From positions 1-35,830 of the forward strand of contig CALWPE010000092.1 in the NCBI GenBank assembly GCA_944383345.1: a stretch of DNA of 35,830 bases, in the 5' to 3' direction. Both the position numbers and the translations under genes were made by a program. Below the pieces are notes generated by a model that was not told where the DNA came from, did no database searches, and was given only the letters and a program-made list of their open reading frames with translations. Source of the stretch: an uncultured Clostridia bacterium. GTDB lineage: Bacteria > Bacillota > Clostridia > Christensenellales > UBA1242. This document shows positions 1,359 through 35,830 of the stretch, in pieces. Within the stretch, counting starts at the first letter, position 1, and every line of letters begins with the position of its first letter.

Positions 1359-2900
1359 TTACAAGATTACAATGTTAAAAGTATAGAATATTTTGTTTTC
1401 TGTATCATCTTTTTGGGTGAGAGTTACCTCTAAGTTACCTTTACTTTCTACAACAAGTGAAACACTATTTGAATTTGTTGAAATGCTATAATTTAAAGTT
1501 GTGCTAATAGTTACTTTTGTTGATATTTCTTCTTGATAGTTGCCTTTTATAACAAAATCGAATTGAATATTTACAGGTAAGGAGTTTGAATACATTGTCA
1601 ATGTATTATCTTCAAAACTAGCATTGTACATATTCATAAAACTTTCGCTAAAAATAATGTCGTAATAATATGGGCTCGGGGATTCTTGCGAATAAGCCAA
1701 CACTTGTACATTGATGTCTATATTCTTTTTGGATATTGTATCTAGTATTGTTACGATATAATTTCCTTCGTTTATTGAAGATATTGTATTATTGTCAACA
1801 TCTAAGCCGTTTGATGTTATTTCAAAATCACAAATTGCATAGATAGGGGAGAAAGTATATTCAATATCAAAGGTTTCATTTGTGTAAATAGAAACGCTAG
1901 TTTGTTTAGGTAAAATATTTTCTACAAGTACATTATTCACTTCAACAGGTATTGTCATAATGTAAGAAGAACCATCAAGAGCCGAGATTTCAAGTAATGT
2001 TGTTCCTTCACTTTTTGCATAAATTTTATTAGAGTCTATGTATGCGACATTTTCATCTAAGATATTAACTTCATACAATGGCAATGAATTTTTATCGGTA
2101 GAGATTTCATATGTTGCGAAGTTGAAGAAATTGTCGTTGTTTGCTTGCTCTAAAAAGTTTTCGTTAAAAAGTGAAAGAGTTAAAACATTATTTTTGTAAC
2201 TATTTGAAAAGTTTACATTAAAATTGTCTATATATTTATAGGTGTTATATGTGAAAGTTTTGCTAAAATTCCTATAACAAAATTCAAATACCGATTGGGC
2301 AGTACTATCAACATGAAAAGAAAATTTAATTTTTCTTTCATTGTCTGTGTCTATATTTGTTAATTGCAAAATATTTTCACTTGTTTTCAATGAAAAATCA
2401 TCGTAAACAGGACTATCTAAATCAAACTCTATTACATAGTCTTCATTAGCAAAAAGTTTGTCCACTATTTTTGTATCTTTATAAATAGTTGCGTTTACTT
2501 GTGTTATTGTGTCAACAACATTAACAACAAACGAATCATAATACGATGAAGCATCTGTCGTTACAATTACCGTTACATCAAATTGTCCAACTTTGTTTGC
2601 ATAAATTTTTTGATTGGTTATAGTCATTGCATTTGTGTCGCAAACAAAACTTAGAGTGTAACTACTATTTGACGATATATCTATATCAAGAGAATAAATT
2701 TCATCAATAAACATAGTTACATCTTCACAAGATATAACTACGCTATCTACATTTTGGTCTGGGTTCTGTAAATCTGCTGGATTCTGCGAATCAACGTCGT
2801 CTTTTGAATTTGGGATTTTTATTTCACCTATAAATATTGCTCCCAACCCAACTAGTACACATATAAAAATTACAGAAAAAATTGTAAAATACTTTTTCAT
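1359..2900 (-). CDS. Membrane-anchored or secreted surface protein with several bacterial Ig-like (Big_2-like) beta-domains
   Basis: Track ORF is 1359..2936, but its start is a TTG lying upstream of the predicted promoter. ATG 2900 gives MKKYFTIFSVIFICVLVGLGAIFIG, a basic n-region followed by a TM helix. Repeated segments of the type ...ITNQKIYANKVGQFDVTVIV..., ...KIYAKSEGTTLLEISALDGSS..., ...NTISSINEGNYIVTILD... resemble Ig-like group 2 strands. The protein is N/S/T/D-rich and looks extracellular. Confidence 0.6.
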   Translation of the reverse strand: MKKYFTIFSVIFICVLVGLGAIFIGEIKIPNSKDDVDSQNPADLQNPDQNVDSVVISCEDVTMFIDEIYSLDIDISSNSSYTLSFVCDTNAMTITNQKIYANKVGQFDVTVIVTTDASSYYDSFVVNVVDTITQVNATIYKDTKIVDKLFANEDYVIEFDLDSPVYDDFSLKTSENILQLTNIDTDNERKIKFSFHVDSTAQSVFEFCYRNFSKTFTYNTYKYIDNFNVNFSNSYKNNVLTLSLFNENFLEQANNDNFFNFATYEISTDKNSLPLYEVNILDENVAYIDSNKIYAKSEGTTLLEISALDGSSYIMTIPVEVNNVLVENILPKQTSVSIYTNETFDIEYTFSPIYAICDFEITSNGLDVDNNTISSINEGNYIVTILDTISKKNIDINVQVLAYSQESPSPYYYDIIFSESFMNMYNASFEDNTLTMYSNSLPVNIQFDFVIKGNYQEEISTKVTISTTLNYSISTNSNSVSLVVESKGNLEVTLTQKDDTENKIFYTFNIVIL

Positions 2901-2915
2901 TTTTTTTGCTAAACA

Positions 2916-2943
2916 ATTATACAAAAATTTCGACAAATATCAA
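2916..2943 (-). promoter_or_regulatory. Promoter for the 1359..2900 gene, with a perfect Spo0A-box-like decamer in the spacer
   Basis: Minus strand reads TTGATA (2943-2938), a 16 nt spacer, then TATAAT (2921-2916). The spacer contains TTTGTCGAAA (plus-strand coordinates 2928-2937). The predicted leader to ATG 2900 is very short and has no SD. Confidence 0.5.
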
Positions 2944-3036: not shown

Positions 3037-4056
3037 ATGGCAAAAGGAAAGGTAGCCGGTGCAATTATCGGTGGATTAGTTGGAATTGGCTTAATAGCAG
3101 GTGTTGTTTTTGCAGTTTCAAACATGGGAGGTGGTCAAAATGTTCCACCACCACCACAACCACAGACACAACTTGCAATGGTACAAAATATAGAATATGA
3201 TTACAAAGATGGTCTTTTGACTTGGGATGAAGTAGAACATGCAGATTCATACAATGTCAAGGTTGACAATGGTGAAGAACAAAAGGTTAATAGTACATAT
3301 TATACCTTTAATCTTGAAAACGATGTCACATATTTTCAAATTCAAGCATGTGATACAACAGGAAATTACAAGGCATCAGAGTGGACAGAGCCTTATGCTG
3401 TAACAAAAATTAAAGAAGAAGAAAGTCTTGTTGACGCAGTAAACAATTTTGCAAGAAGTATTGCAATAAAAGGCAATGAACTTGACAAGATTATAAGTGT
3501 AATGCCAGAAGGAAACTATCTTGTTACAACTGGAGTATATGAATACGACGGAGAAAAGTATCTTTTAACAGATTATACTGATTGTGGGAAACCTGTGGAA
3601 AGTCTTAAAGAAGCATTAAAGACAGAAGATGCTTATAATAAGACTGAAACTAGAGCAGAAGAAATTGCAAAAGATTATGATACAGAAGCATCATTTATGG
3701 CAAGAGAAAATGGATATAGCGAAAGCATCCAAAGACTAGTTGATGAAAATAAAGATGTTAAGTTTGTAACCAGCCAAGCGTATGAAGTAAGTGAAACAGG
3801 TGTTGGGCTTAGAGGAATAGTTAAGGCAACAGATGGCGTTGAAGAAAAGTTTTATTTAACAGATATAGAAATTTATGCTGGATCAATAAATAACGAAGAA
3901 GTAAAATACACCACAGCAGTTGAACAAGCCGATGCAGAAAGTTTGTATGAAAATTATTTCACTGAGATAACAGGTGACTTTGCAGACTATGCAAAACAGT
4001 TAGATGAACTTCAAAATCAGGCACAATCAACAACAGATTATGGGATGTCATTTTAA
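3037..4056 (+). CDS. N-terminally membrane-anchored extracellular protein: Gly-rich TM helix, Pro/Gln linker, FN3-like domain, then an acidic C-terminal domain
   Basis: MAKGKVAGAIIGGLVGIGLIAGVVFAVSN is followed by PPPPQPQTQ. Next comes a ~90-aa segment (LLTWDEVEHADSYNVKVDNGEEQKVNSTYYTF...IQACDTTGNYKASEWTEPYAV) with the W...Y.V......Y pattern of fibronectin type III domains. The SD is strong. Confidence 0.6.
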   Translation: MAKGKVAGAIIGGLVGIGLIAGVVFAVSNMGGGQNVPPPPQPQTQLAMVQNIEYDYKDGLLTWDEVEHADSYNVKVDNGEEQKVNSTYYTFNLENDVTYFQIQACDTTGNYKASEWTEPYAVTKIKEEESLVDAVNNFARSIAIKGNELDKIISVMPEGNYLVTTGVYEYDGEKYLLTDYTDCGKPVESLKEALKTEDAYNKTETRAEEIAKDYDTEASFMARENGYSESIQRLVDENKDVKFVTSQAYEVSETGVGLRGIVKATDGVEEKFYLTDIEIYAGSINNEEVKYTTAVEQADAESLYENYFTEITGDFADYAKQLDELQNQAQSTTDYGMSF

Positions 4057-22135: not shown

Positions 22136-22765
22136 TTACTCTGCTATAGATTCAAAAACAACATCAACATTGTTTAAGAAGTTCTGGAATTGCTCATCAA
22201 AGTTTTGTAATGTGTAAACAAGTTTAACGCAAACAGTTTCACTTTGTGGAATAACAATTTGGTCAATGTTTACTGTGTTTTGATTTGTACCATCTAAAGT
22301 TATAAGTTCTACAGTTTCAAGTTCTTCAAGGTCAGCTGCCTGAGCATATTCTGTTGTAAATTTTTGGGCTGGGTCGTATGCAAGTTCTCTAAATTCAACC
22401 CCAAGCGCACGCTGACTATTTAAGTTTTCAATAGTGAAAGTCAATGTAATTACAGTTTCTGTGGAACTAAAATTTGTTTGTCCAAGAGACCATGAAGGTA
22501 TAACCATCTTTTCATCAAGGTAAGCATCTTCATTATCACGAGTGATTTGGAAGTGATGAGTTGCCTCAAACCCTTCATCAAGAGCAGGGCCAGTATACTC
22601 TGCGTCTACCTTTACAAAGACATTGTCGTCACCACTATCAAAAGATACAGTGTTTGAAACACCAGAATTGCTTACAACTATTGAATAAACTCCGAATGTT
22701 AAAAGTGCCAAACTTAAAACAAGCATGACAATCACTAGAGTTAGCCTAACATATTTTGAATTCAT
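22136..22765 (-). CDS. Secreted ~209-aa protein, a paralogue (P1) of the two small proteins next to the SipW-like peptidase
   Basis: ATG 22765 follows AAGGAG by 5 nt, whereas the track's GTG at 22771 overlaps the SD. It has a signal-anchor followed by FGVYS. It shares ordered motifs with 31698..32321 and 32683..33321 (see findings). Confidence 0.7.
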   Translation of the reverse strand: MNSKYVRLTLVIVMLVLSLALLTFGVYSIVVSNSGVSNTVSFDSGDDNVFVKVDAEYTGPALDEGFEATHHFQITRDNEDAYLDEKMVIPSWSLGQTNFSSTETVITLTFTIENLNSQRALGVEFRELAYDPAQKFTTEYAQAADLEELETVELITLDGTNQNTVNIDQIVIPQSETVCVKLVYTLQNFDEQFQNFLNNVDVVFESIAE

Positions 22766-22853
22766 AACCACTCCTTAACTTGACTTTAGTATAAACCAAA
22801 TGTAAAAAAAAACAAAACATTTTTTTGTATATTGACAAAAATACAAAAAATAG

Positions 22854-29772: not shown

Positions 29773-30705
29773 ATGAAATTAAAAAAACCATTACTTTTTG
29801 GCTTGGCATTGATGTTGACTGCAGGTAGTGCTATAACACTTTCTGCTTGTGGTAAAAGCGATATAAAGGTAGGGGCTCAAGACTTTTATGCAATGGCTGC
29901 ATTATCTAGTGTAAACTATTTGCAAGATGAAAAGGCACCAACAGGAGTTACAACAGGTAGGCTTAGTGAAGTTTTAGCGCAAGGGACAAATAGACCTGAA
30001 TCTGTTTCTACTCAAGATGTTGATAGTTTGGCGTCCTATATGGATATGTTTAGAGATATGTTATCTAGTGACACAAATAAATATTTCACCAATGGGCAGG
30101 TGACACAAGAAGATGTAAACTATCAAGACTATAATTTTAAGATGACATTTACAATCCCAACAAATGACGGTCAGCAAGATTTGGTTATGTATTATAATGA
30201 AGTCAAAACCGACACACATCAAGAAGTAGACGAAAACGAAGTGGAGTTAGAGATAAATACAACACTAAACGGAATCTTAGTTGACGGCGAAAATACTTAC
30301 ACTGTTGAAGGCATGCGTGAGTATGAAAAAGAAGGAAACAAAACCGAAGTTGCTTATGAGTTTAAGACATATTCTCAAGAAAATCCAAAAGACTATGTAA
30401 AAATAGAACATGAAAAAGAAAATGATGAGATTGAATATGAGTATCTAATTTACAAAAATGGTGTAAAGGCGAGTGAAACTTCTGTAGAATTTGAAAACGA
30501 AAGGGGAAGGAAAAGCCTAGAACTTGAATTTAAAGCAAATCAAACAAATCTAAAATATGAGATAACAGAAAGAGAACAAAATGTTTATCAAGTAAGACTA
30601 AAAAATAAAGCAAACAACAACGAAATAAAAGAAATATTTACAATAAAACCAGTACAAAATGGCTATCTTTTTGAATATTCAAACGGATATTCTGAGGTTG
30701 TATAA
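29773..30705 (+). CDS. Lipoprotein (310 aa), acidic and beta-rich
   Basis: MKLKKPLLFGLALMLTAGSAITLSAC carries the lipobox L-S-A-C. SD GGAGG lies 5 nt upstream of ATG 29773; the track's 29761 start is a TTG inside the SD region. Confidence 0.8.
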   Translation: MKLKKPLLFGLALMLTAGSAITLSACGKSDIKVGAQDFYAMAALSSVNYLQDEKAPTGVTTGRLSEVLAQGTNRPESVSTQDVDSLASYMDMFRDMLSSDTNKYFTNGQVTQEDVNYQDYNFKMTFTIPTNDGQQDLVMYYNEVKTDTHQEVDENEVELEINTTLNGILVDGENTYTVEGMREYEKEGNKTEVAYEFKTYSQENPKDYVKIEHEKENDEIEYEYLIYKNGVKASETSVEFENERGRKSLELEFKANQTNLKYEITEREQNVYQVRLKNKANNNEIKEIFTIKPVQNGYLFEYSNGYSEVV

Positions 30706-30744: not shown

Positions 30745-30787
30745 ACACCTTAAAAATGAAGTGCACCCCACTTAAGGTGTTTTTTTA
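30745..30787. terminator. Bidirectional terminator between the lipoprotein gene and the convergent peptidase gene
   Basis: Stem ACACCTTAA (30745-30753) pairs with TTAAGGTGT (30772-30780), flanked by A- and T-runs. Confidence 0.75.
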
Positions 30788-31615
30788 TGCTTTATCTTTT
30801 TTGTCTTTTTCATCTTTTGTGTTTATAGGGGTATAAGATTGCAGTTGTGATACAGTTTTATTTTGCAAACGCTTGTATTCAAAAATATACAAAATCAGTT
30901 GATAGACATCAACGGTGATAATAAGACTACAAGGCAATGAGATTAAACAAACGATACCTTTTGGTGATGTAGCAAATGTTATAAAGTTTGTCAAGGCGTT
31001 TGGTTGGTCAATCCATTTTCCAATAACATATTTTTCATAAATTTGTGTATGGTCTGGGTTGACATTGTTTGTACCTTTTGTAGTGAACCATCTATTGCCG
31101 TTTGAGTCTGTTGTTATTCCATAAATAGCATGAAAAACAATTCTACCTTTTGCTCTTGCCTTGGGATAAACATCTTCTGTAACAGCACCGGGATTTGGAC
31201 AATCGGTGTCATAAAACTGATAAAATGCTATGTAATCACCAACTTCAAGCGAGTCGGTATCTGTTTGCTTGACAAATGTTTTTTCTCCAACTTTAAAACC
31301 TGCATCTTGCATAGAACCAGATACAATTCTTATTTGTGTGTAACCAAAAATAGAAGCAACACCTGTTTTTATTTTTGAAACAAGCACCGAAGACAATACA
31401 ATACCTATAACAATCATTATTGGGACTAAAAGTATATTAAAAATAATATCCATAACTCTTGTTATTTTTTTTAATAGTTTACCTTTTTTCTGTATTTTTT
31501 TATTTTCATTGTATTGGCTTTCAAGAAGATGTTGTATGCTTTCTTCTTGCATTGTTTGGTCTTGTTCTTTTTGTTGCTCTTGTTTGTTTATGTTGTTTTG
31601 CGTTTTTTCTTTCAT
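30785..31615 (-). CDS. sipW: ER/archaeal-type (SipW/Sec11-like, S26B) signal peptidase I with a polar N-terminal extension
   Basis: FGYTQIRIVSGSMQ gives the Ser box, RIVFHAIYG the His box, and FTTKGTNNVNPDH the 'KGDNN' box position. There is a TM helix before the Ser box and a C-terminal TM helix (IVCLISLPCSLIITVDVYQLILYIF). The Lys box of bacterial LepB-type peptidases is absent. Confidence 0.7.
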   Translation of the reverse strand: MKEKTQNNINKQEQQKEQDQTMQEESIQHLLESQYNENKKIQKKGKLLKKITRVMDIIFNILLVPIMIVIGIVLSSVLVSKIKTGVASIFGYTQIRIVSGSMQDAGFKVGEKTFVKQTDTDSLEVGDYIAFYQFYDTDCPNPGAVTEDVYPKARAKGRIVFHAIYGITTDSNGNRWFTTKGTNNVNPDHTQIYEKYVIGKWIDQPNALTNFITFATSPKGIVCLISLPCSLIITVDVYQLILYIFEYKRLQNKTVSQLQSYTPINTKDEKDKKDKA

Positions 31616-31652
31616 CGGCTTATTCTACTATAAATAATGATTTTTTAAAAGT

Positions 31653-31678
31653 AAAAAAAGGCATTTTCTGCCTTTTTT
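31653..31678. terminator. Terminator between the P2 gene and the peptidase gene
   Basis: AAAAAAGGCA-TTTTC-TGCCTTTTTT. The GC core is short, so some read-through is plausible. Confidence 0.6.
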
Positions 31679-31697
31679 ACTTTGTTTTAAATTAAAT

Positions 31698-32321
31698 TTA
31701 TGCCGTTTGGTCAAGTGTAATGGTAATATCAAAGTCAGCAGCAGCAGCAGCTCTTTCAGTTAATGCAGCAAGGTCAACATTTGCAGCAACAACTATGTAA
31801 AATTCACCAGTTCCGTTTGTTGCAGCAAGTTCTACATCAGCATCAAGTGCTGTGTTGTTTGCAAGTGCTGTCATTGATGCATCAAAAGTTTTGCCATAGT
31901 AAATTGTAAGTTCTGTGTTGTCAACGGCTGTTGCAGCAATGTGTGCATATACAACTTTTGTTGATTTATTTGTAAATTCAAACTTGTAAGCATAGTAGTT
32001 GTGATTATCTTCAACATTAAATACAATTGGTGTAGCAGCCTGTGATTTTTGGTCTTCATCAGATGTCTTTGTGACAAGTTCTGACCAAGAAACAGAACCA
32101 GTTGGTGCTGAAGCAACTGCAGTATTTCCAGCATTGAGATATTCACTTGCAACGACTTGTACTTTTGTTTGACCTGCTGATGTGATTGTGATGGTGTTTG
32201 AGATTTCAAGAGATTGGGCAAGTGCAGCATAAACAGAAACGCCAACAAGTAAAAGACATACAAGGATACTTACAGCAAGAGAAACAATTTTCACTTTGAT
32301 AGATTTTTGTTGTTTTTCCAT
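31698..32321 (-). CDS. Secreted Ala/Thr/Val-rich ~207-aa protein (P2). Candidate major subunit with a SipW-cognate-like signal peptide (TasA/camelysin-like architecture).
   Basis: The signal is MEKQQKSIKVKIVSLAVSILVCLLLVGVSVYA|ALAQSLEISNTITIT. SD is AAGGAGAG. It has a near-consensus promoter and its own terminator, and its composition is atypical for this Lys/Asn/Ile-rich genome. Confidence 0.65.
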   Translation of the reverse strand: MEKQQKSIKVKIVSLAVSILVCLLLVGVSVYAALAQSLEISNTITITSAGQTKVQVVASEYLNAGNTAVASAPTGSVSWSELVTKTSDEDQKSQAATPIVFNVEDNHNYYAYKFEFTNKSTKVVYAHIAATAVDNTELTIYYGKTFDASMTALANNTALDADVELAATNGTGEFYIVVAANVDLAALTERAAAAADFDITITLDQTA

Positions 32322-32351
32322 TTTTCTCTCCTTTTATTTAAAATCTAATTT

Positions 32352-32380
32352 AATATATCACACAAAAAAAATGGTGTCAA
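32352..32380 (-). promoter_or_regulatory. Strong promoter for P2
   Basis: Minus strand reads TTGACA (32380-32375), a 17 nt spacer ending in TGa, then TATATT (32357-32352). Confidence 0.65.
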
Positions 32381-32449
32381 AGATATTTTCTTTATTTTTT
32401 AATGTATTTTATAATATTTTTTAATGTTTTAAAAAATTTGTTACATTAG

Positions 32450-32478
32450 TTGACAAGACCTTTTCATTTATATATAAT
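32450..32478 (+). promoter_or_regulatory. Perfect-consensus sigma-A promoter about 205 nt upstream of P3
   Basis: TTGACA (32450-32455), exactly 17 nt, then TATAAT (32473-32478). A second candidate, an extended -10 (TGtTATAAT), lies at 32627-32635. Confidence 0.6.
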
Positions 32479-32682
32479 ACAACGAAAAGTAGTTTTAGAA
32501 TTATAATCATCTCATAAACTATATTGTTACAAAATACGACATTTTTTTTGCGTATTTTAAATACCAATTTTGGTACAAATTATACACTTTTGTGTCACAT
32601 TTTGGGTATATATAGGTATATATTTGTGTTATAATTACGCTATATTATAGTATATTATTATGTTATTTAATTTGATAGAACG

Positions 32683-33321
32683 ATGGAAAATAGAATTAAA
32701 AGAAATTTAATTGTTAAAATAATTATTTTGTCTGCAGTACTTGTTTCACTTGTATGTCTATTTTCTTATACCGTTTATGCTTCTATGACCCAAACTTTAT
32801 CCATTGGGGCACAAATTATAATAACTGACGATGGTCAGGCAAAAAGTGTCATAAATATATATGAAACATTGGGACCAAACGACAATACTACATTTTTGGA
32901 ACTCAACCAAGAACCAAACTTTGAACTTGCATTTACAAAACAAAGAGATGAAGATAGTGCTTTTGGTAACTTTAACATAAAACCAACATTTGGTGGCGAA
33001 AATGAATATAGATATTACATTATGAAAATAGAGATACAAAATGTTTCTACTATTCCACTTAGTTACAGGGCAAGGGTAATAAACGAACTTGGTGAAGATT
33101 TTGTTTTTTCTTCACAGTTACAACTTTTGTATATGCAAAATCAAGGCAATCCATTCTCGTTGGTAGATATATCAAACATTGAAGGGATTGTTGATGTACA
33201 ACAAAAAATTGAAAGATACATAGTTTTGACAATTAAAGATGGTGTAGATTTTGTGGACTTAGTGCCAACAAACACACATTCTTTTTATCTTAATATCGAG
33301 GTGAACGCAAATGAAAACTAG
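32683..33321 (+). CDS. Secreted ~212-aa protein (P3), a paralogue of P2 and P1
   Basis: The signal is MENRIKRNLIVKIIILSAVLVSLVCLFSYTVYA|SMTQTLSIGAQIIIT. It shares ordered motifs with P1 and P2. There is no SD before the ATG. Its stop region overlaps the start of the next gene. Confidence 0.65.
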   Translation: MENRIKRNLIVKIIILSAVLVSLVCLFSYTVYASMTQTLSIGAQIIITDDGQAKSVINIYETLGPNDNTTFLELNQEPNFELAFTKQRDEDSAFGNFNIKPTFGGENEYRYYIMKIEIQNVSTIPLSYRARVINELGEDFVFSSQLQLLYMQNQGNPFSLVDISNIEGIVDVQQKIERYIVLTIKDGVDFVDLVPTNTHSFYLNIEVNANEN

Positions 33322-35830
33322 GAGTTTAAAGTTCACTTTTGTTTCGCTTTGTGTTGCTGTTTGTTTTATGTCAGCATTTATTTTTATATTCTATATAACT
33401 GATGCTTTTGGTTTATTAAGGCAAATACTTATTGCGCAAAATGATTATGAAGTACTTATTGCAGATGACAATACAAAATCACAAATATACTACATAGATA
33501 GTGCAGAAGACCTTAACAATGTGAGATACAATATGTATCAAAAAAATGATGATGGTTCTTTTAATTTAAACTTACCAAATACTTTTATACAGATTTGCGA
33601 TATTGATATGACCGGCTCAGATTTTTCATCAAATTCGGGCAACTTTGACCCAATCGCTAGTGATTATCCTTTTAACGGCACATATTTAGGCAATGGCTTT
33701 TCTATTTTAAATTTAAATATTGTATGTTATGAAAGCAATGTTGGACTTTTCTCAACTGTTGGCGAAACTGGGAAAATAAGTTCATTAAAACTTGTTGACT
33801 GTTCAATTACAGGTGGAAACAATGTCGGTGCAATAGCAGGTACAAACAATGGGACAATATCTTTAGTTGCAAACTATGCAACAATTCAAGATGCAACAAA
33901 TGTAGGTGGTATTGCAGGAATAAACAATGGAACAATAGAAAAAAGTTTTAATTGTGGAAATTTGCAAGGTACAAATGTAGGTGGAATATCAGCACAAAAC
34001 ACCAAAAGTATTTTAAATTGTTTCAATATCGCAGACATTGAAAATGGAAGTGGTATAGCACTAGAAAATAGTGGTTCTATTGCAAATACATATAATGTTG
34101 GAAATGTAAATTTTGGAATATCACAATCAGGTACAGTACAAAATTCTTATTATCTTCAAGGCACAACAAATCAAATTGGAAACGGAACAGCACTTTCAAT
34201 TGACCAATTCGTTGGAATGGACGACTCTCAAAACATTGAAACACTTTTAAACGCAAACCAAGCAGAAAAGGTATTTAGGTTTGACCATTTATATATATGC
34301 AAGCATCAAGAAGGTGAAAAGAACTACCAATTTCCACACATTGTTGACAACTATATTGATGTTTCATATCAAGGCGCAATGCAGGTGTCTAGTGACGGAA
34401 AATATCATATCATTGACAATGCTGAGCAGTTTAATGCAATTGGTGTAACATATAATGAAATTTCATATTCAACCCAATCAAACTATTTTTTAAATATTGA
34501 TATAGATTGCCAAAGCACTAGTGTTAATCCAATACAACAATTTTTAGGCGAATTTAATGGGAACAGCCATAAAATTTCTAATTTGTCAATAAATACTGAC
34601 ATAGAAAACTTGGGTTTATTTTATGTGTTGACTGATGGTGCCTATGTACACAATTTAACACTTTCTGGATTTTCGCTTACAAACACAAACACAGAAGCAG
34701 AATCTTCTGTTGGCTCACTTGCCGGAGAAGTTGGAAACAATGTCATAATAGAAAATGTTTTTGTTGAAAATAGTTATGTGACATCAAACGGAAGTTCGGG
34801 TGTGTTTGTGGGCGAAACGATATCGCAAGTTAGTGGTGGTAATGGTCATATTTGGTATTGTGGAGTTTATAACAGCGAAGCAATGGGAACAAACGACTAC
34901 AATGCAATCTTTGACTACACATATGGGCCAACAGGTGGGTTTATTGGTAAAATTGCTGACATAAATAATCAATCGGCATATATATCTAATTGTTATGTTG
35001 TAAGTGACAATAACTCGGCATACGATTATATCTCAACAGGAGATATTAGTATGGGTGGATTTATTGGAGAAATACAAGAAAATTCAAATGTTATTATACA
35101 AAATTGTATAGCAGTTGGACATGTGTATTCAGGTAAAGATTATGTGTGGGGAAGTGTGCAAGAACTAGACTGTGTAGGTGGTTTTATTGGAATCAACAAT
35201 TCTTCACAATCAACTATTCAAAAAAGTTATGCAAAAGTTACAGTGTCAAGAGCATCAACATTTTTGGGAATAGGTCAGGTAACAACAAGAGCATTTGGAC
35301 ACAATAGTGGAGATGGAAATTTCTATCAGGTATATGCTCTTTCGCAAGATTGTGATGGAAGTTCTGGTGCTACCGATATACAGGAGAGTGCATTTAACTC
35401 TCAGTCAACATTTTCTGTATTTGATTTTCAAAACGATTGGGCAATGTCAAGTATAGGGAGTGAATCTAATATTCCTGTACCAAACAAAAATAAAATTGTT
35501 GTCACCTCAGATGATAATTCAACAATAACTTTAACAAAAGATAATAATTTGCTAGCAACTGTGCAAGGCGAAACTGCAGTTTTTGATAGTTTGGCAGATG
35601 GGCAGTACACTATAAATATTACAAGATTTGGGCAAACAGTTGCATTAACATATAATTTAACTTTGTCTACTGGTCTTGAAAATTATATGTTTGAAAAGTG
35701 GTTCTATTCAGGAAATGGGACACAGGAACAACCTTATGTTATTACAAGTTCATATAATTTTGAACATCTTTCAAACTTTAATTCTTCTGCATATTTTTCA
35801 ATTCAAAACAATGTAAATTTTGAAAACTTG
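33311..35830 (+). CDS. Very large GLUG-motif repeat surface protein (adhesin-like). The N-terminus is complete and the 3' end lies beyond the window.
   Basis: Absent from the ORF track because it has no stop in the window. My hand translation from ATG 33311 is open for 840 codons to position 35830. SD GAGGTGA lies 5 nt upstream. It has an N-terminal TM helix (FVSLCVAVCFMSAFIFIFYITDA). Modules recur in the form '...DIDM/DIDC...PI...F.G.f.GNG/GNSH.I.NL.I...N.GLF' followed by GLUG-type units (NVGAIAG, NVGGIAG, NVGGISA, SVGSLAG, TGGFIG, MGGFIG, VGGFIG). Confidence 0.8.
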   Translation, partial: MKTRSLKFTFVSLCVAVCFMSAFIFIFYITDAFGLLRQILIAQNDYEVLIADDNTKSQIYYIDSAEDLNNVRYNMYQKNDDGSFNLNLPNTFIQICDIDMTGSDFSSNSGNFDPIASDYPFNGTYLGNGFSILNLNIVCYESNVGLFSTVGETGKISSLKLVDCSITGGNNVGAIAGTNNGTISLVANYATIQDATNVGGIAGINNGTIEKSFNCGNLQGTNVGGISAQNTKSILNCFNIADIENGSGIALENSGSIANTYNVGNVNFGISQSGTVQNSYYLQGTTNQIGNGTALSIDQFVGMDDSQNIETLLNANQAEKVFRFDHLYICKHQEGEKNYQFPHIVDNYIDVSYQGAMQVSSDGKYHIIDNAEQFNAIGVTYNEISYSTQSNYFLNIDIDCQSTSVNPIQQFLGEFNGNSHKISNLSINTDIENLGLFYVLTDGAYVHNLTLSGFSLTNTNTEAESSVGSLAGEVGNNVIIENVFVENSYVTSNGSSGVFVGETISQVSGGNGHIWYCGVYNSEAMGTNDYNAIFDYTYGPTGGFIGKIADINNQSAYISNCYVVSDNNSAYDYISTGDISMGGFIGEIQENSNVIIQNCIAVGHVYSGKDYVWGSVQELDCVGGFIGINNSSQSTIQKSYAKVTVSRASTFLGIGQVTTRAFGHNSGDGNFYQVYALSQDCDGSSGATDIQESAFNSQSTFSVFDFQNDWAMSSIGSESNIPVPNKNKIVVTSDDNSTITLTKDNNLLATVQGETAVFDSLADGQYTINITRFGQTVALTYNLTLSTGLENYMFEKWFYSGNGTQEQPYVITSSYNFEHLSNFNSSAYFSIQNNVNFENL

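What the first reader, a model, noticed from the sequence alone, without database searches (positions are those of the whole stretch)
30785..35830. SipW-type peptidase, two paralogous small secreted proteins and a giant GLUG-repeat protein: a candidate uncharacterised surface-fibre/adhesin system
**Seen in the sequence.** An ER/archaeal-type signal peptidase (SGSM, FHA and KGxNN boxes plus a C-terminal TM helix) sits next to two divergently transcribed ~210-aa proteins, P2 and P3.
- P2 and P3 are clearly paralogous, and both are paralogous to P1 at 22.1 kb.
- All three begin with a basic n-region and a TM helix that ends in VY(A/S).
- All three then share ordered motifs. These are V.V.AxEY / INIYE, then T(K/R)x(1-2)(D/N)ED at about residues 76-91, then an h-x-h-E-h-x-N-x-S strand (FTIENLNS / FEFTNKST / IEIQNVST).
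- The C-terminal halves share two more strands, (Y/K)(I/L)V and hxhxh.
- P3 is translationally coupled (11-nt overlap) to an ORF of more than 840 aa built from GLUG-motif modules.

**Established knowledge.** In Bacillus, SipW is a dedicated peptidase for the TasA and TapA matrix-fibre proteins. sipW-tasA-like operons also encode matrix fibres in clostridia.

**Inference.** This looks like a SipW-dependent polymer, with P2 as the major subunit and P3 as a minor or anchor subunit, physically and genetically coupled to a giant GLUG adhesin. I do not know that combination as a described system. The lipoprotein (29773..30705) and the 201-aa protein upstream may or may not belong to it.
Basis: partly seen in the sequence, partly recalled or inferred. 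Interest (0 to 1): 0.72.

Follow-up and report, generated by a model that had tools for sequence, protein, structure and literature searches.

The report
Peptidase-linked surface fibre gene cassette
An uncultured Clostridia bacterium carries a conserved four-gene cassette: a private SipW-type signal peptidase, two related small secreted proteins of an unnamed family, and a 1,119-residue GLUG beta-helix protein; the layout copies known TasA/BsaA/AbpX fibre operons, but the building blocks show no detectable relation to theirs.

Summary
The peptidase passes the archaeal/ER-type SPase I model and keeps an invariant Ser/His/Asp. P2 and P3 are full-length paralogs (hhalign 98%). P1 is a distant relative, but only through intermediate sequences. 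The open ORF is a 1,119-aa protein whose remote homologs carry Pfam GLUG.

The four genes travel together in at least nine related metagenomic loci with different flanks. P2 followed by the peptidase is the invariant core. The lipoprotein and the 201-aa gene are not part of it.

P2/P3 belong to a rare unnamed superfamily (79 clusters among 1.84 billion). It has no Pfam or NCBIfam model and no TasA/camelysin/BsaA match. A pLDDT-95 model finds no PDB analogue (TM 0.33 or less; TasA absent). Only the signal peptide aligns with TasA, with the cleavage sites in register.

The layout (dedicated SPase I, major subunit, minor paralog, large variable protein) is already described for C. perfringens sipW-bsaA-bsaB-bsaC and for AbpX/TasA-superfamily loci.

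Best reading: a SipW-dependent surface fibre or complex of the known kind, built from a new subunit family and carrying a GLUG adhesin. Polymerisation itself is untested. Verdict: new variant of a known kind, moderate interest.

The parts
30785..31615 (-). ER/archaeal (SipW-type) signal peptidase I, 276 aa, with N- and C-terminal TM helices; the dedicated partner of P2
   Evidence: TIGR02228 59.7 bits, above the 51.85 cut-off. Ser101, His162 and Asp188 are invariant in 10 orthologs. The His and Asp boxes align with those of SEC11A. It lies immediately downstream of P2 in every related locus.
30764..30779 (-). Terminator-like hairpin after the peptidase gene; end of the P2-peptidase unit
   Evidence: Consensus scan.
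31654..31678 (-). Terminator-like hairpin (AAAAAAGGCAGAAAATGCCTTTTTT) between P2 and the peptidase; a candidate attenuator giving high P2 and low peptidase expression
   Evidence: An equivalent hairpin sits at the same place in L003 (10686-10711) and L013 (8669-8691).
31698..32321 (-). P2, 207 aa: signal peptide (predicted cleavage VYA32|A33) plus a 175-aa all-beta sandwich; candidate major subunit
   Evidence: Only 31 close homologs, all unannotated. AF2 model of the mature part: pLDDT 95.1, pTM 0.90. No PDB analogue with TM above 0.33. Strong SD AAGGAGAG.
32352..32380 (-). Promoter-like site for P2 (TTGACA-17-TATATT with TG extension, 11 of 12)
32450..32478 (+). Promoter-like site for the P3/large-ORF operon (TTGACA-17-TATAAT, 12 of 12), followed by a ~200-nt AT-rich leader
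   Evidence: The leader is not unusually structured (z = -0.79) and has no Rfam match.
32683..33321 (+). P3, 212 aa: full-length paralog of P2 (signal peptide, cleavage VYA|S); candidate minor or adaptor subunit
   Evidence: hhalign of P2 family vs P3 family: 98.2%, E 3e-14. Orthologs occur in L002, L003, L005, L009 and L013, always directly upstream of the large gene.
33311..35830 (+). Large secreted protein, truncated by the window end (full length 1,119 aa). It has an N-terminal signal, a short P2-like strand motif (LLRQILIAQNDYEV) and a linker, then three GLUG-type beta-helix modules (starting near residues 58, 364 and 807) with an Ig-like insert at about 725-795. There is no C-terminal anchor.
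   Evidence: Most remote homologs carry PF07581 GLUG. Peptidase_M26_N scores 25.4 bits here and 32.5/35.4 bits in orthologs, against a 27.7 cut-off.
22136..22771 (-). P1, 211 aa: distant member of the same superfamily, an orphan gene between holA and rpsT; not part of the cassette
   Evidence: P1 family vs intermediate subfamily A8: hhalign 98.3%, E 1e-14. The A8 HMM hits P1 at E 4e-19. The position is conserved in L006-L008.

Best explanation
The cassette is a SipW-type-peptidase-dependent cell-surface assembly system of the TasA/BsaA/AbpX kind.

Proposed steps (all inferred):
1. P2, P3 and the GLUG protein are exported by Sec.
2. Each is held in the membrane by a long signal peptide ending in (V/A)-(Y/F)-(A/G).
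3. The co-encoded ER-type signal peptidase releases them.
4. P2, made in excess, is the major structural subunit.
5. P3, made 1:1 with the GLUG protein by translational coupling, is a minor or adaptor subunit.
6. The three-module GLUG beta-helix protein is the displayed adhesive or tip component. It attaches through its short N-terminal strand, because it has no other anchor.
7. Assembly most likely uses N-terminal strand complementation, as in TasA, BsaA and AbpX.

Shown: gene content, homology relations, conserved linkage, signal and motif features, expression signals.
Inferred: cleavage by this peptidase, the stoichiometric roles, polymerisation, and tip attachment.
For: - Dedicated peptidase. 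It passes TIGR02228 above the cut-off with an intact Ser/His/Asp. It lies directly downstream of P2 in all related loci despite different flanks; the minimal locus L012 is P2 + peptidase only.
- Paralogous major/minor pair.
- P3 and the large gene overlap by 11 nt with an internal SD; the overlap is conserved.
- P2 has an 11/12 promoter, a strong SD and a conserved hairpin before the peptidase.
- Signal class. The superfamily profile aligns with the TasA signal peptide in register, placing VYA|AL on the known TWA|AF site. TIGR04088 'SipW-dependent-type signal peptide' hits 9 of 59 superfamily members, best E 2e-4.
- Shared post-signal motif x-hydrophobic-x-Q-x5-N in P2, in some P3s and in the P3-coupled large proteins. 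In 146,071 residues of ORFs it occurs otherwise in only one unrelated family. In the large protein it is followed by a Pro/Thr-containing linker before the beta-helix. Large proteins without a P3 partner (L010, L011) have ordinary signals.
- Relatives fuse the P2-like domain N-terminally to adhesin-type domains: BspA LRR, DUF6273.
- Published parallels. sipW-bsaA-bsaB-bsaC (PMC11580942). TapA's N-terminus mimics the TasA donor strand (PMC9674648). AbpX loci combine a TIGR02228 SPase I with minor subunits and variable tip proteins (10.64898/2026.01.04.697558).
- Variant cassettes contain extra small proteins with weak BsaA-family (TIGR04090) hits, E 0.035 and 0.047.
Against: - Mature P2/P3/P1 show no detectable sequence or fold similarity to TasA, BsaA, camelysin or any solved fibre subunit.
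- The monomer model is compact and complete, including its N-terminal strands. No vacant groove is evident, although monomeric TasA is also self-complemented.
- An HMM of the P2/P3 mature N-termini does not retrieve the large proteins' N-termini. The 'shared strand' is therefore a short, post-hoc motif.
- The N42/E60/K113 triad shows no clean covariation.
- The cassette has no wall-anchor gene (LPXTG, SLH, sortase).
- Distant family members, including P1, are orphans with no adjacent peptidase.
- No multimer prediction or experiment was possible.
Confidence: 0.5

Rival explanations
1. Non-polymeric surface complex. P2, P3 and the GLUG protein are co-secreted or signal-anchored cell-surface proteins, for example a wall- or glycan-binding beta-sandwich pair holding a beta-helix adhesin or enzyme-like protein. 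The private peptidase processes or releases them, and no fibre forms.
For: - The mature P2 model is a self-contained beta-sandwich. Its weak structural neighbours are carbohydrate-binding or PA14-type modules and mu-homology domains.
- One relative gives a near-threshold CBM49 hit.
- There is no TasA-fold or TasA-family signal.
- Family members occur as N-terminal domains of multidomain surface proteins.
- The long hydrophobic helix (residues 3-34 in the full-length model) could act as a signal anchor.
Against: - It does not explain why a dedicated ER-type peptidase always accompanies P2. So far that pairing is characteristic of fibre or biomatrix loci.
- It does not explain the major/minor paralog pattern, or the P2-like N-terminal motif on an otherwise unrelated large protein.
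Confidence: 0.3
2. Housekeeping peptidase. The SipW-type enzyme is the organism's general type I signal peptidase, and its position next to P2 carries no functional meaning.
For: - That is only a small fraction of any one genome.
- The cargo N-termini look like ordinary Gram-positive signal peptides with a V-x-A cleavage site. The EF0750 signal-region hits are below cut-off.
Against: - P2 followed by the peptidase is invariant across at least nine relatives, while the flanking genes differ.
- The pair moves as a unit with the rest of the cassette.
- A conserved attenuator-like hairpin links the two genes.
- Clostridia normally encode LepB-type enzymes (general knowledge, not tested here).
Confidence: 0.07
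3. Sporulation-associated appendage or coat structure. The cassette builds a spore-surface structure and not a vegetative biofilm fibre.
For: - The cassette lies within a few kb of spoIIE in the window and in L002, in different arrangements.
Against: - Both promoters match the sigma-70/SigA-type consensus almost perfectly.
- In L003, L005, L010, L011 and L013 no sporulation gene is adjacent.
- Proximity to spoIIE may simply reflect shared ancestry of two related genomes.
Confidence: 0.05

Closest known systems
Clostridium perfringens sipW-bsaA-bsaB-bsaC operon (Obana 2020, PMC7395162; Kivimaki 2025, PMC11580942)
   Same: - Four genes: a SipW-type peptidase, two paralogous ~200-aa secreted proteins (one major, one minor) and one large secreted protein with an adhesive-type domain.
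- All cargo proteins carry signal peptides thought to be cut by the private peptidase.
- Host class is Clostridia.
- No LPXTG on the subunits.
   Different: - The subunits here are not BsaA/TasA family. TIGR04090 and Peptidase_M73 do not hit, and there is no fold match.
- The large protein is a three-module GLUG beta-helix protein, not a vWA protein.
- Genes are arranged as two divergent units (P2-peptidase | P3-large), not as one operon.
- Isopeptide locking is demonstrated for BsaA. Here there is only a non-covarying N/E/K coincidence.
Bacillus subtilis tapA-sipW-tasA (TasA donor-strand fibres; PMC9674648, PMC10151520)
   Same: - A dedicated ER-type peptidase next to a fibre subunit.
- The signal peptide aligns in register with TasA's, including the cleavage position.
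- An accessory protein (TapA there, the GLUG protein here) has an N-terminus resembling the subunit's N-terminal strand.
   Different: - The peptidase is not a SipW ortholog (56.8 bits against a 190 cut-off).
- The mature subunits are unrelated in sequence and, by Foldseek, in fold.
- The accessory protein is 1,119 aa with beta-helix modules.
AbpX/AbpA/Tafi loci of the 'TasA superfamily' (bioRxiv 10.64898/2026.01.04.697558; PMC9245690; PMC9715654)
   Same: - A TIGR02228-type SPase I immediately downstream of the major subunit gene; the minimal locus is subunit + peptidase, as in L012.
- Larger loci add subunit-like minor components and structurally variable tip proteins predicted to join by donor-strand complementation.
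   Different: - No detectable membership in that superfamily.
- The peptidase here has the ordinary two TM helices, not the ten described for AbpX-linked enzymes.
- There is no DUF5305 accessory gene, SLH or LPXTG anchor, or regulator in the cassette.
GLUG-motif / IgA1-protease N-terminal (Peptidase_M26_N) beta-helix surface proteins
   Same: - The large ORF's remote homologs carry PF07581.
- Orthologs pass Peptidase_M26_N.
- The repeated N(V/L)GG(I/F)(A/V)G units and module caps are typical.
   Different: - No protease domain, no LPXTG, SLH or choline-binding anchor.
- It is attached genetically to a SipW-type cassette. No held paper combines GLUG with SipW.

Membership tests
ER/archaeal-type signal peptidase I (TIGR02228; the SipW/SEC11 type) | Scores above the curated cut-off of the family model | tested here: met
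   59.7 bits against a 51.85 cut-off.
ER/archaeal-type signal peptidase I (TIGR02228; the SipW/SEC11 type) | Ser-His(-Asp) catalytic residues in place of the Ser-Lys dyad of LepB-type enzymes | tested here: met
   Ser101 (SGSM), His162 (VFH) and Asp188 (NN..PD) are invariant in 10 orthologs. The His and Asp boxes align with those of SEC11A.
ER/archaeal-type signal peptidase I (TIGR02228; the SipW/SEC11 type) | Orthology to Bacillus SipW (equivalog model NF046067) | tested here: not met
   56.8 bits against a 190 cut-off. It is the same type of enzyme, not an ortholog.
ER/archaeal-type signal peptidase I (TIGR02228; the SipW/SEC11 type) | Actually cleaves the neighbouring cargo proteins | not testable with these tools
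   Needs co-expression and N-terminal sequencing or mass spectrometry.
TasA / camelysin (Peptidase_M73) / BsaA (TIGR04090) fibre subunits | Sequence match of the mature domain to the family models or to TasA | tested here: not met
   P1-P3 have no hit at E<=1 in Pfam or NCBIfam. None of the 59 superfamily members gives such a hit. A PDB profile search finds nothing. hhalign against validated TasA aligns only the signal peptide.
TasA / camelysin (Peptidase_M73) / BsaA (TIGR04090) fibre subunits | Jelly-roll fold similar to TasA (5OF1/5OF2, 8AUR) | tested here: not met
   Foldseek against the PDB with the pLDDT-95.1 mature P2 model gives a best TM of 0.33 (a PA14 domain), and no TasA chain is in the top 50. 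TasA is in the PDB sequence copy. Only the top 50 of 1,778 matches are visible, so a very weak similarity is not excluded.
TasA / camelysin (Peptidase_M73) / BsaA (TIGR04090) fibre subunits | SipW-cognate class signal peptide (TIGR04088) | tested here: inconclusive
   The window's P1-P3 give no hit at E<=1. Nine of 59 superfamily members match, best E 2e-4; the cut-off is 19 bits and P0098 scores 16.8. The in-register hhalign with the TasA signal has only 22-33% probability.
TasA / camelysin (Peptidase_M73) / BsaA (TIGR04090) fibre subunits | Adjacent dedicated SPase I gene | tested here: met
   P2 is followed by the peptidase in every locus examined.
TasA / camelysin (Peptidase_M73) / BsaA (TIGR04090) fibre subunits | Polymerisation by N-terminal donor-strand exchange | not testable with these tools
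   Only single-chain prediction was available, and model coordinates are not exposed.
GLUG-motif proteins (Pfam PF07581) | Pfam GLUG hit at the gathering threshold | tested here: not met
   The window ORF has no hit at E<=1. Orthologs score 10.7 bits (L002) and 15.7 bits (L013) against a 20.5 cut-off.
GLUG-motif proteins (Pfam PF07581) | Significant homology to proteins that carry PF07581 | tested here: met
   Most of the 35 remote homologs (E 1e-23 to 8e-4) have PF07581 precomputed. Eight G(G/A)(I/F)(A/I)G cores are arranged in three modules.
bsa-type / AbpX-type locus architecture | SPase I + major subunit + paralogous minor subunit + large variable accessory or tip protein, conserved as a unit | tested here: met
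   The cassette is conserved in the window, L015, L002, L003/L004, L005, L009 and L013. Variants occur in L010, L011 and L012.

The most novel reading that the evidence does not exclude
The P2/P3/P1 superfamily is an evolutionarily independent, non-TasA-fold class of strand-complemented fibre subunits. In this reading it has convergently recruited an ER-type signal peptidase. The GLUG beta-helix protein is plugged onto the fibre end by a 14-16-residue N-terminal donor strand. The conserved Asn(+10)/Glu60/Lys113 form an intermolecular isopeptide lock, as in BsaA and archaeal threads.
Probability: 0.2. Interest if true: 0.72.

Novelty: new variant of a known kind. Interest (0 to 1): 0.5.

Why it matters
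Dedicated ER-type signal peptidases are emerging as markers of chaperone-free, donor-strand extracellular fibres in bacteria and archaea (TasA, BsaA, AbpA/AbpX, threads). This cassette keeps that genetic logic, but its subunits have no Pfam or NCBIfam model and no solved structural analogue. If they polymerise, the 'SipW + subunit' rule would extend beyond the TasA superfamily. That would give a handle for finding further fibre families by gene neighbourhood alone. It would also give GLUG modules, whose function is still unknown, a concrete role as the displayed part of a fibre. The system is confined to a narrow, uncultured Clostridia lineage, so the immediate impact is modest.

Tried and rejected
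- Direct TasA/camelysin membership was rejected. Pfam and NCBIfam gave nothing. The PDB profile search gave nothing. Two Foldseek PDB runs, with and without the signal helix, gave only generic beta-sandwich hits at TM 0.33 or less. hhalign against validated TasA aligned only the signal peptide.
- The BFVD viral fold search was uninformative (TM 0.42 or less).
- Direct P1-P2 and P1-P3 paralogy was not significant. It was established only through intermediates.
- I expected an HMM of the P2/P3 mature N-terminal strand to find the large proteins' N-termini. It did not. Only a post-hoc regex shows specificity, so the claim was downgraded to a motif-level resemblance.
- The isopeptide triad N42/E60/K113 showed no clean covariation and is kept only as speculation.
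- The EF0750_LPXTG hits cover only residues 1-50 and are below the cut-off, so they are signal-peptide likeness and not homology.
- A riboswitch or leader upstream of P3 was sought. There is no Rfam hit, the leader's fold is not unusual (z = -0.79), and the intergenic DNA conserves only P2's RBS.
- The lipoprotein and the 201-aa gene were rejected as cassette members.
- The search for a LepB-type peptidase in the held sequence found none, but it covers too little of any genome to mean anything.
- Cluster look-ups gave no names or organism labels.

Full report
WHAT IS THERE. The window is about 30% G+C and carries ordinary firmicute chromosomal genes: dnaE, pfkA, glmS, comEC, holA, rpsT, greA, spoIIE. 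At its 3' end lie four genes:
- a 276-aa peptidase, 30785-31615(-);
- P2, 207 aa, 31698-32321(-);
- P3, 212 aa, 32683-33321(+), transcribed divergently;
- an ORF that starts at 33311 and runs off the window.
A 98%-identical full-length copy of that ORF is 1,119 aa. On its contig (L015) a small DUF6438-like gene and a NUDIX gene follow, so the cassette has four genes.

THE PEPTIDASE. It passes NCBIfam TIGR02228 (archaeal/ER-type SPase I): 59.7 bits against a cut-off of 51.85. It does not pass the Bacillus SipW equivalog: 56.8 against 190. In ten orthologs the Ser of SGSM, the His of VFH and the Asp of NN..PD are invariant. The His and Asp boxes align with those of human SEC11A. There is one TM helix at each end. 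It is a SipW-type enzyme but not a SipW ortholog.

THE SMALL PROTEINS.
- P2 and P3 are paralogs over their whole length. BLASTP gives E 6e-10. Family profiles give hhalign 98.2%, E 3e-14 over 198 columns.
- P1 (22136-22771) is not demonstrably related by direct comparison.
- A profile search of 1.84 billion cluster representatives found only 79 relatives. These include a divergent subfamily (A8) with the N-terminus MKKK..ASL.L..FGVYAA......V...V.F.
- The P2 family matches A8 at 99.7% (E 1.5e-26) and the P1 family matches it at 98.3% (E 1.4e-14).
- An HMM of A8, which contains no window protein, hits P2, P1 and P3 at 2e-26, 4e-19 and 2e-10.
All three therefore belong to one rare superfamily that has no Pfam or NCBIfam model. 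P1 is an orphan, conserved between holA and rpsT in relatives. Other distant members also lack a neighbouring peptidase.

NOT TasA BY SEQUENCE OR FOLD.
- No member hits Peptidase_M73, TIGR04089 or TIGR04090.
- A profile search of all PDB sequences finds nothing.
- AlphaFold2 gives a confident all-beta sandwich: pLDDT 88 with the signal helix, and 95.1 with pTM 0.90 for the mature 175 residues.
- Foldseek against the PDB returns only generic beta-sandwiches (mu-homology, PA14, CBM, Gram-positive pilins) at TM 0.33 or less. No TasA chain is in the top 50. TasA is in the PDB sequence copy; my recalled sequence is 100% identical to 8AUR_A.
- hhalign of the superfamily profile against TasA aligns only the signal peptide. 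It does so in register, so P2's VYA|AL falls on TasA's TWA|AF cleavage site.
- TIGR04088, the 'SipW-dependent-type signal peptide' model, weakly matches 9 of 59 superfamily members, best E 2e-4.
The export signal resembles the SipW-cognate class. The mature domain does not resemble TasA.

THE LARGE PROTEIN. It has a signal peptide and three modules that each open with a Y-x-I-x-S/N-A/S-E-x-L/F-N-type cap, followed by N(V/L)GG(I/F)(A/V)G repeats. An Ig-like insert lies at about 725-795. There is no C-terminal anchor. Pfam GLUG does not reach threshold on it or on its orthologs. Most of its remote homologs carry PF07581, and two orthologs pass Peptidase_M26_N. The GLUG label is justified by homology. 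'Giant' is an overstatement.

CONSERVED LINKAGE.
- P2 homologs are few: 31 in 5.8 billion clusters, and 6 of 185,579 species genomes, all labelled 'uncultured Clostridia bacterium' MAGs.
- In every locus recovered, P2 is followed by the peptidase.
- In the window, L015, L002, L003/L004, L005, L009 and L013, a P3 gene and a large GLUG gene (1,099-1,940 aa) lie divergently. The flanking genes differ: rnpA-yidC-jag and spoIIE; an aldo-keto reductase; an acetyltransferase.
- L012 has only P2 + peptidase.
- L010 and L011 replace the P3/GLUG unit. Their large protein is about 1,480 aa, has InlB-B-repeat domains and an ordinary signal peptide, and is followed by two further small secreted proteins. 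L011 also has a second P2 copy.
- The lipoprotein homolog in L006 has no cassette beside it.
It also argues against a merely housekeeping peptidase.

EXPRESSION SIGNALS.
- The divergent intergenic region holds a 12/12 sigma-70-type promoter towards P3 and an 11/12 promoter with a TG extension towards P2.
- P2 has a strong SD and a short leader.
- A terminator-like hairpin lies between P2 and the peptidase, and equivalents occur in L003 and L013. This suggests much P2 and little peptidase.
- P3's stop overlaps the large ORF's start by 11 nt, with a GAGGTG SD inside P3. The overlap is conserved in four other loci, which suggests 1:1 synthesis.
- No known RNA element is present, and the P3 leader is not unusually structured.

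A SHARED N-TERMINAL MOTIF, WITH CAVEATS.
- After the hydrophobic helix, P2 reads A|AL.Q.L.I.N.I.IT, and P3 reads A|(S/L)(M/I).Q.L.I.(A/N).I.
- The P3-coupled large proteins read (G/A)|LL.Q...(I/L/V).N.V.V, followed by a Pro/Thr-containing linker and then the first beta-helix cap.
- A regex for this motif matches 33 times in 146,071 ORF residues. All matches are cassette proteins at the same position, except one holA family.
- However, the regex was derived after seeing the sequences. An HMM of the P2/P3 N-termini does not retrieve the large proteins.
I therefore treat this as a suggestive recognition or donor-strand motif, not as demonstrated homology. P2's invariant N42, E60 and K113 recall BsaA's N35/E56/K74 isopeptide triad, but they do not covary across the superfamily.

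COMPARISON WITH WHAT IS KNOWN.
- The C. perfringens sipW-bsaA-bsaB-bsaC operon has the same logic. BsaA polymerises by donor-strand exchange with isopeptide locking (PMC11580942, PMC7395162).
- TapA's N-terminus mimics the TasA donor strand (PMC9674648).
- A 2026 preprint describes AbpX/TasA-superfamily loci with a TIGR02228 SPase I directly downstream of the subunit gene, plus minor subunits and structurally variable tip proteins predicted to co-assemble.
- No held paper links SipW with GLUG.
The architecture is of a known kind. What is new is the subunit family (unnamed, no solved analogue) and the GLUG partner.

VERDICT.
- Best explanation (confidence about 0.5): a SipW-type-peptidase-dependent surface fibre or complex, with P2 as the major subunit, P3 as the adaptor and the GLUG protein as the displayed adhesin.
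- Main rival (about 0.3): a non-polymeric surface complex.
- Polymerisation, cleavage and the presence of a LepB-type enzyme elsewhere in the genome remain untested.
- Rating: new variant of a known kind; interest 0.5.

Noticed in passing
L010:2215-3391 and L011:1502-2689 (minus strand): Variant cassettes carry two extra ~195-aa secreted proteins downstream of a ~1,480-aa protein with InlB-B-repeat/Flg_new domains. One begins ...IVYA|YLFNSKEANINTQIG, which resembles the TasA/camelysin N-terminal signature. The other begins ...VWA|ARNQSITLNNTIKI, which resembles P2. One protein of each kind gives a weak hit to TIGR04090 (BsaA family), E 0.035 and 0.047, far below the cut-off.
   Followed up: partly
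P0131 (869 aa, locus L019:975-3584), P0154 (499 aa), P0159, P0167: Some distant relatives fuse the P2-like domain, at the N-terminus, to larger C-terminal regions: BspA-type LRR_5 repeats in P0131 and an extension in P0154. DUF6273 was among the Pfam hits in this set, but it was not assigned to a particular protein. In L019 the next gene starts with a beta-helix-cap-like sequence.
   Followed up: partly
window 31654-31678; L003:10686-10711; L013:8669-8691: A short A/T-flanked GGC hairpin with T-runs on both strands lies between P2 and the peptidase in three divergent loci. It could be a partial terminator that sets the P2:peptidase ratio.
   Followed up: partly
window 22136-22771 and L006-L008: P1 keeps a fixed position between holA and rpsT in relatives at 59% identity, with no peptidase nearby. 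It may be a core-genome member of the superfamily that is processed in trans or by the general peptidase.
   Followed up: partly
L013:79-1362 (minus strand): In L013 a 427-aa secreted GDSL-type lipase/acylhydrolase lies directly downstream of the 1,940-aa GLUG protein. It may be an additional cassette member in that lineage.
   Followed up: no
L002:11923-14271: A 782-aa membrane protein with a sub-threshold CvpA/Colicin_V N-terminal match and a long acidic Ser/Thr-rich extracellular region lies between the cassette and spoIIE in L002. Nothing equivalent is in the window.
   Followed up: no
window 1359-2936(-) and 3037-4056(+): Two further divergently transcribed genes encode N-terminally anchored, probably extracellular proteins of 525 and 339 aa with repetitive beta-rich sequence. 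They were not examined.
   Followed up: no
window 32485-32682: A ~200-nt AT-rich leader lies between the consensus promoter and the weakly SD-preceded P3 start. It contains the palindrome TATATATAGGTATATAT. It has no Rfam match, its folding energy is not unusual, and it is not conserved in other loci.
   Followed up: yes
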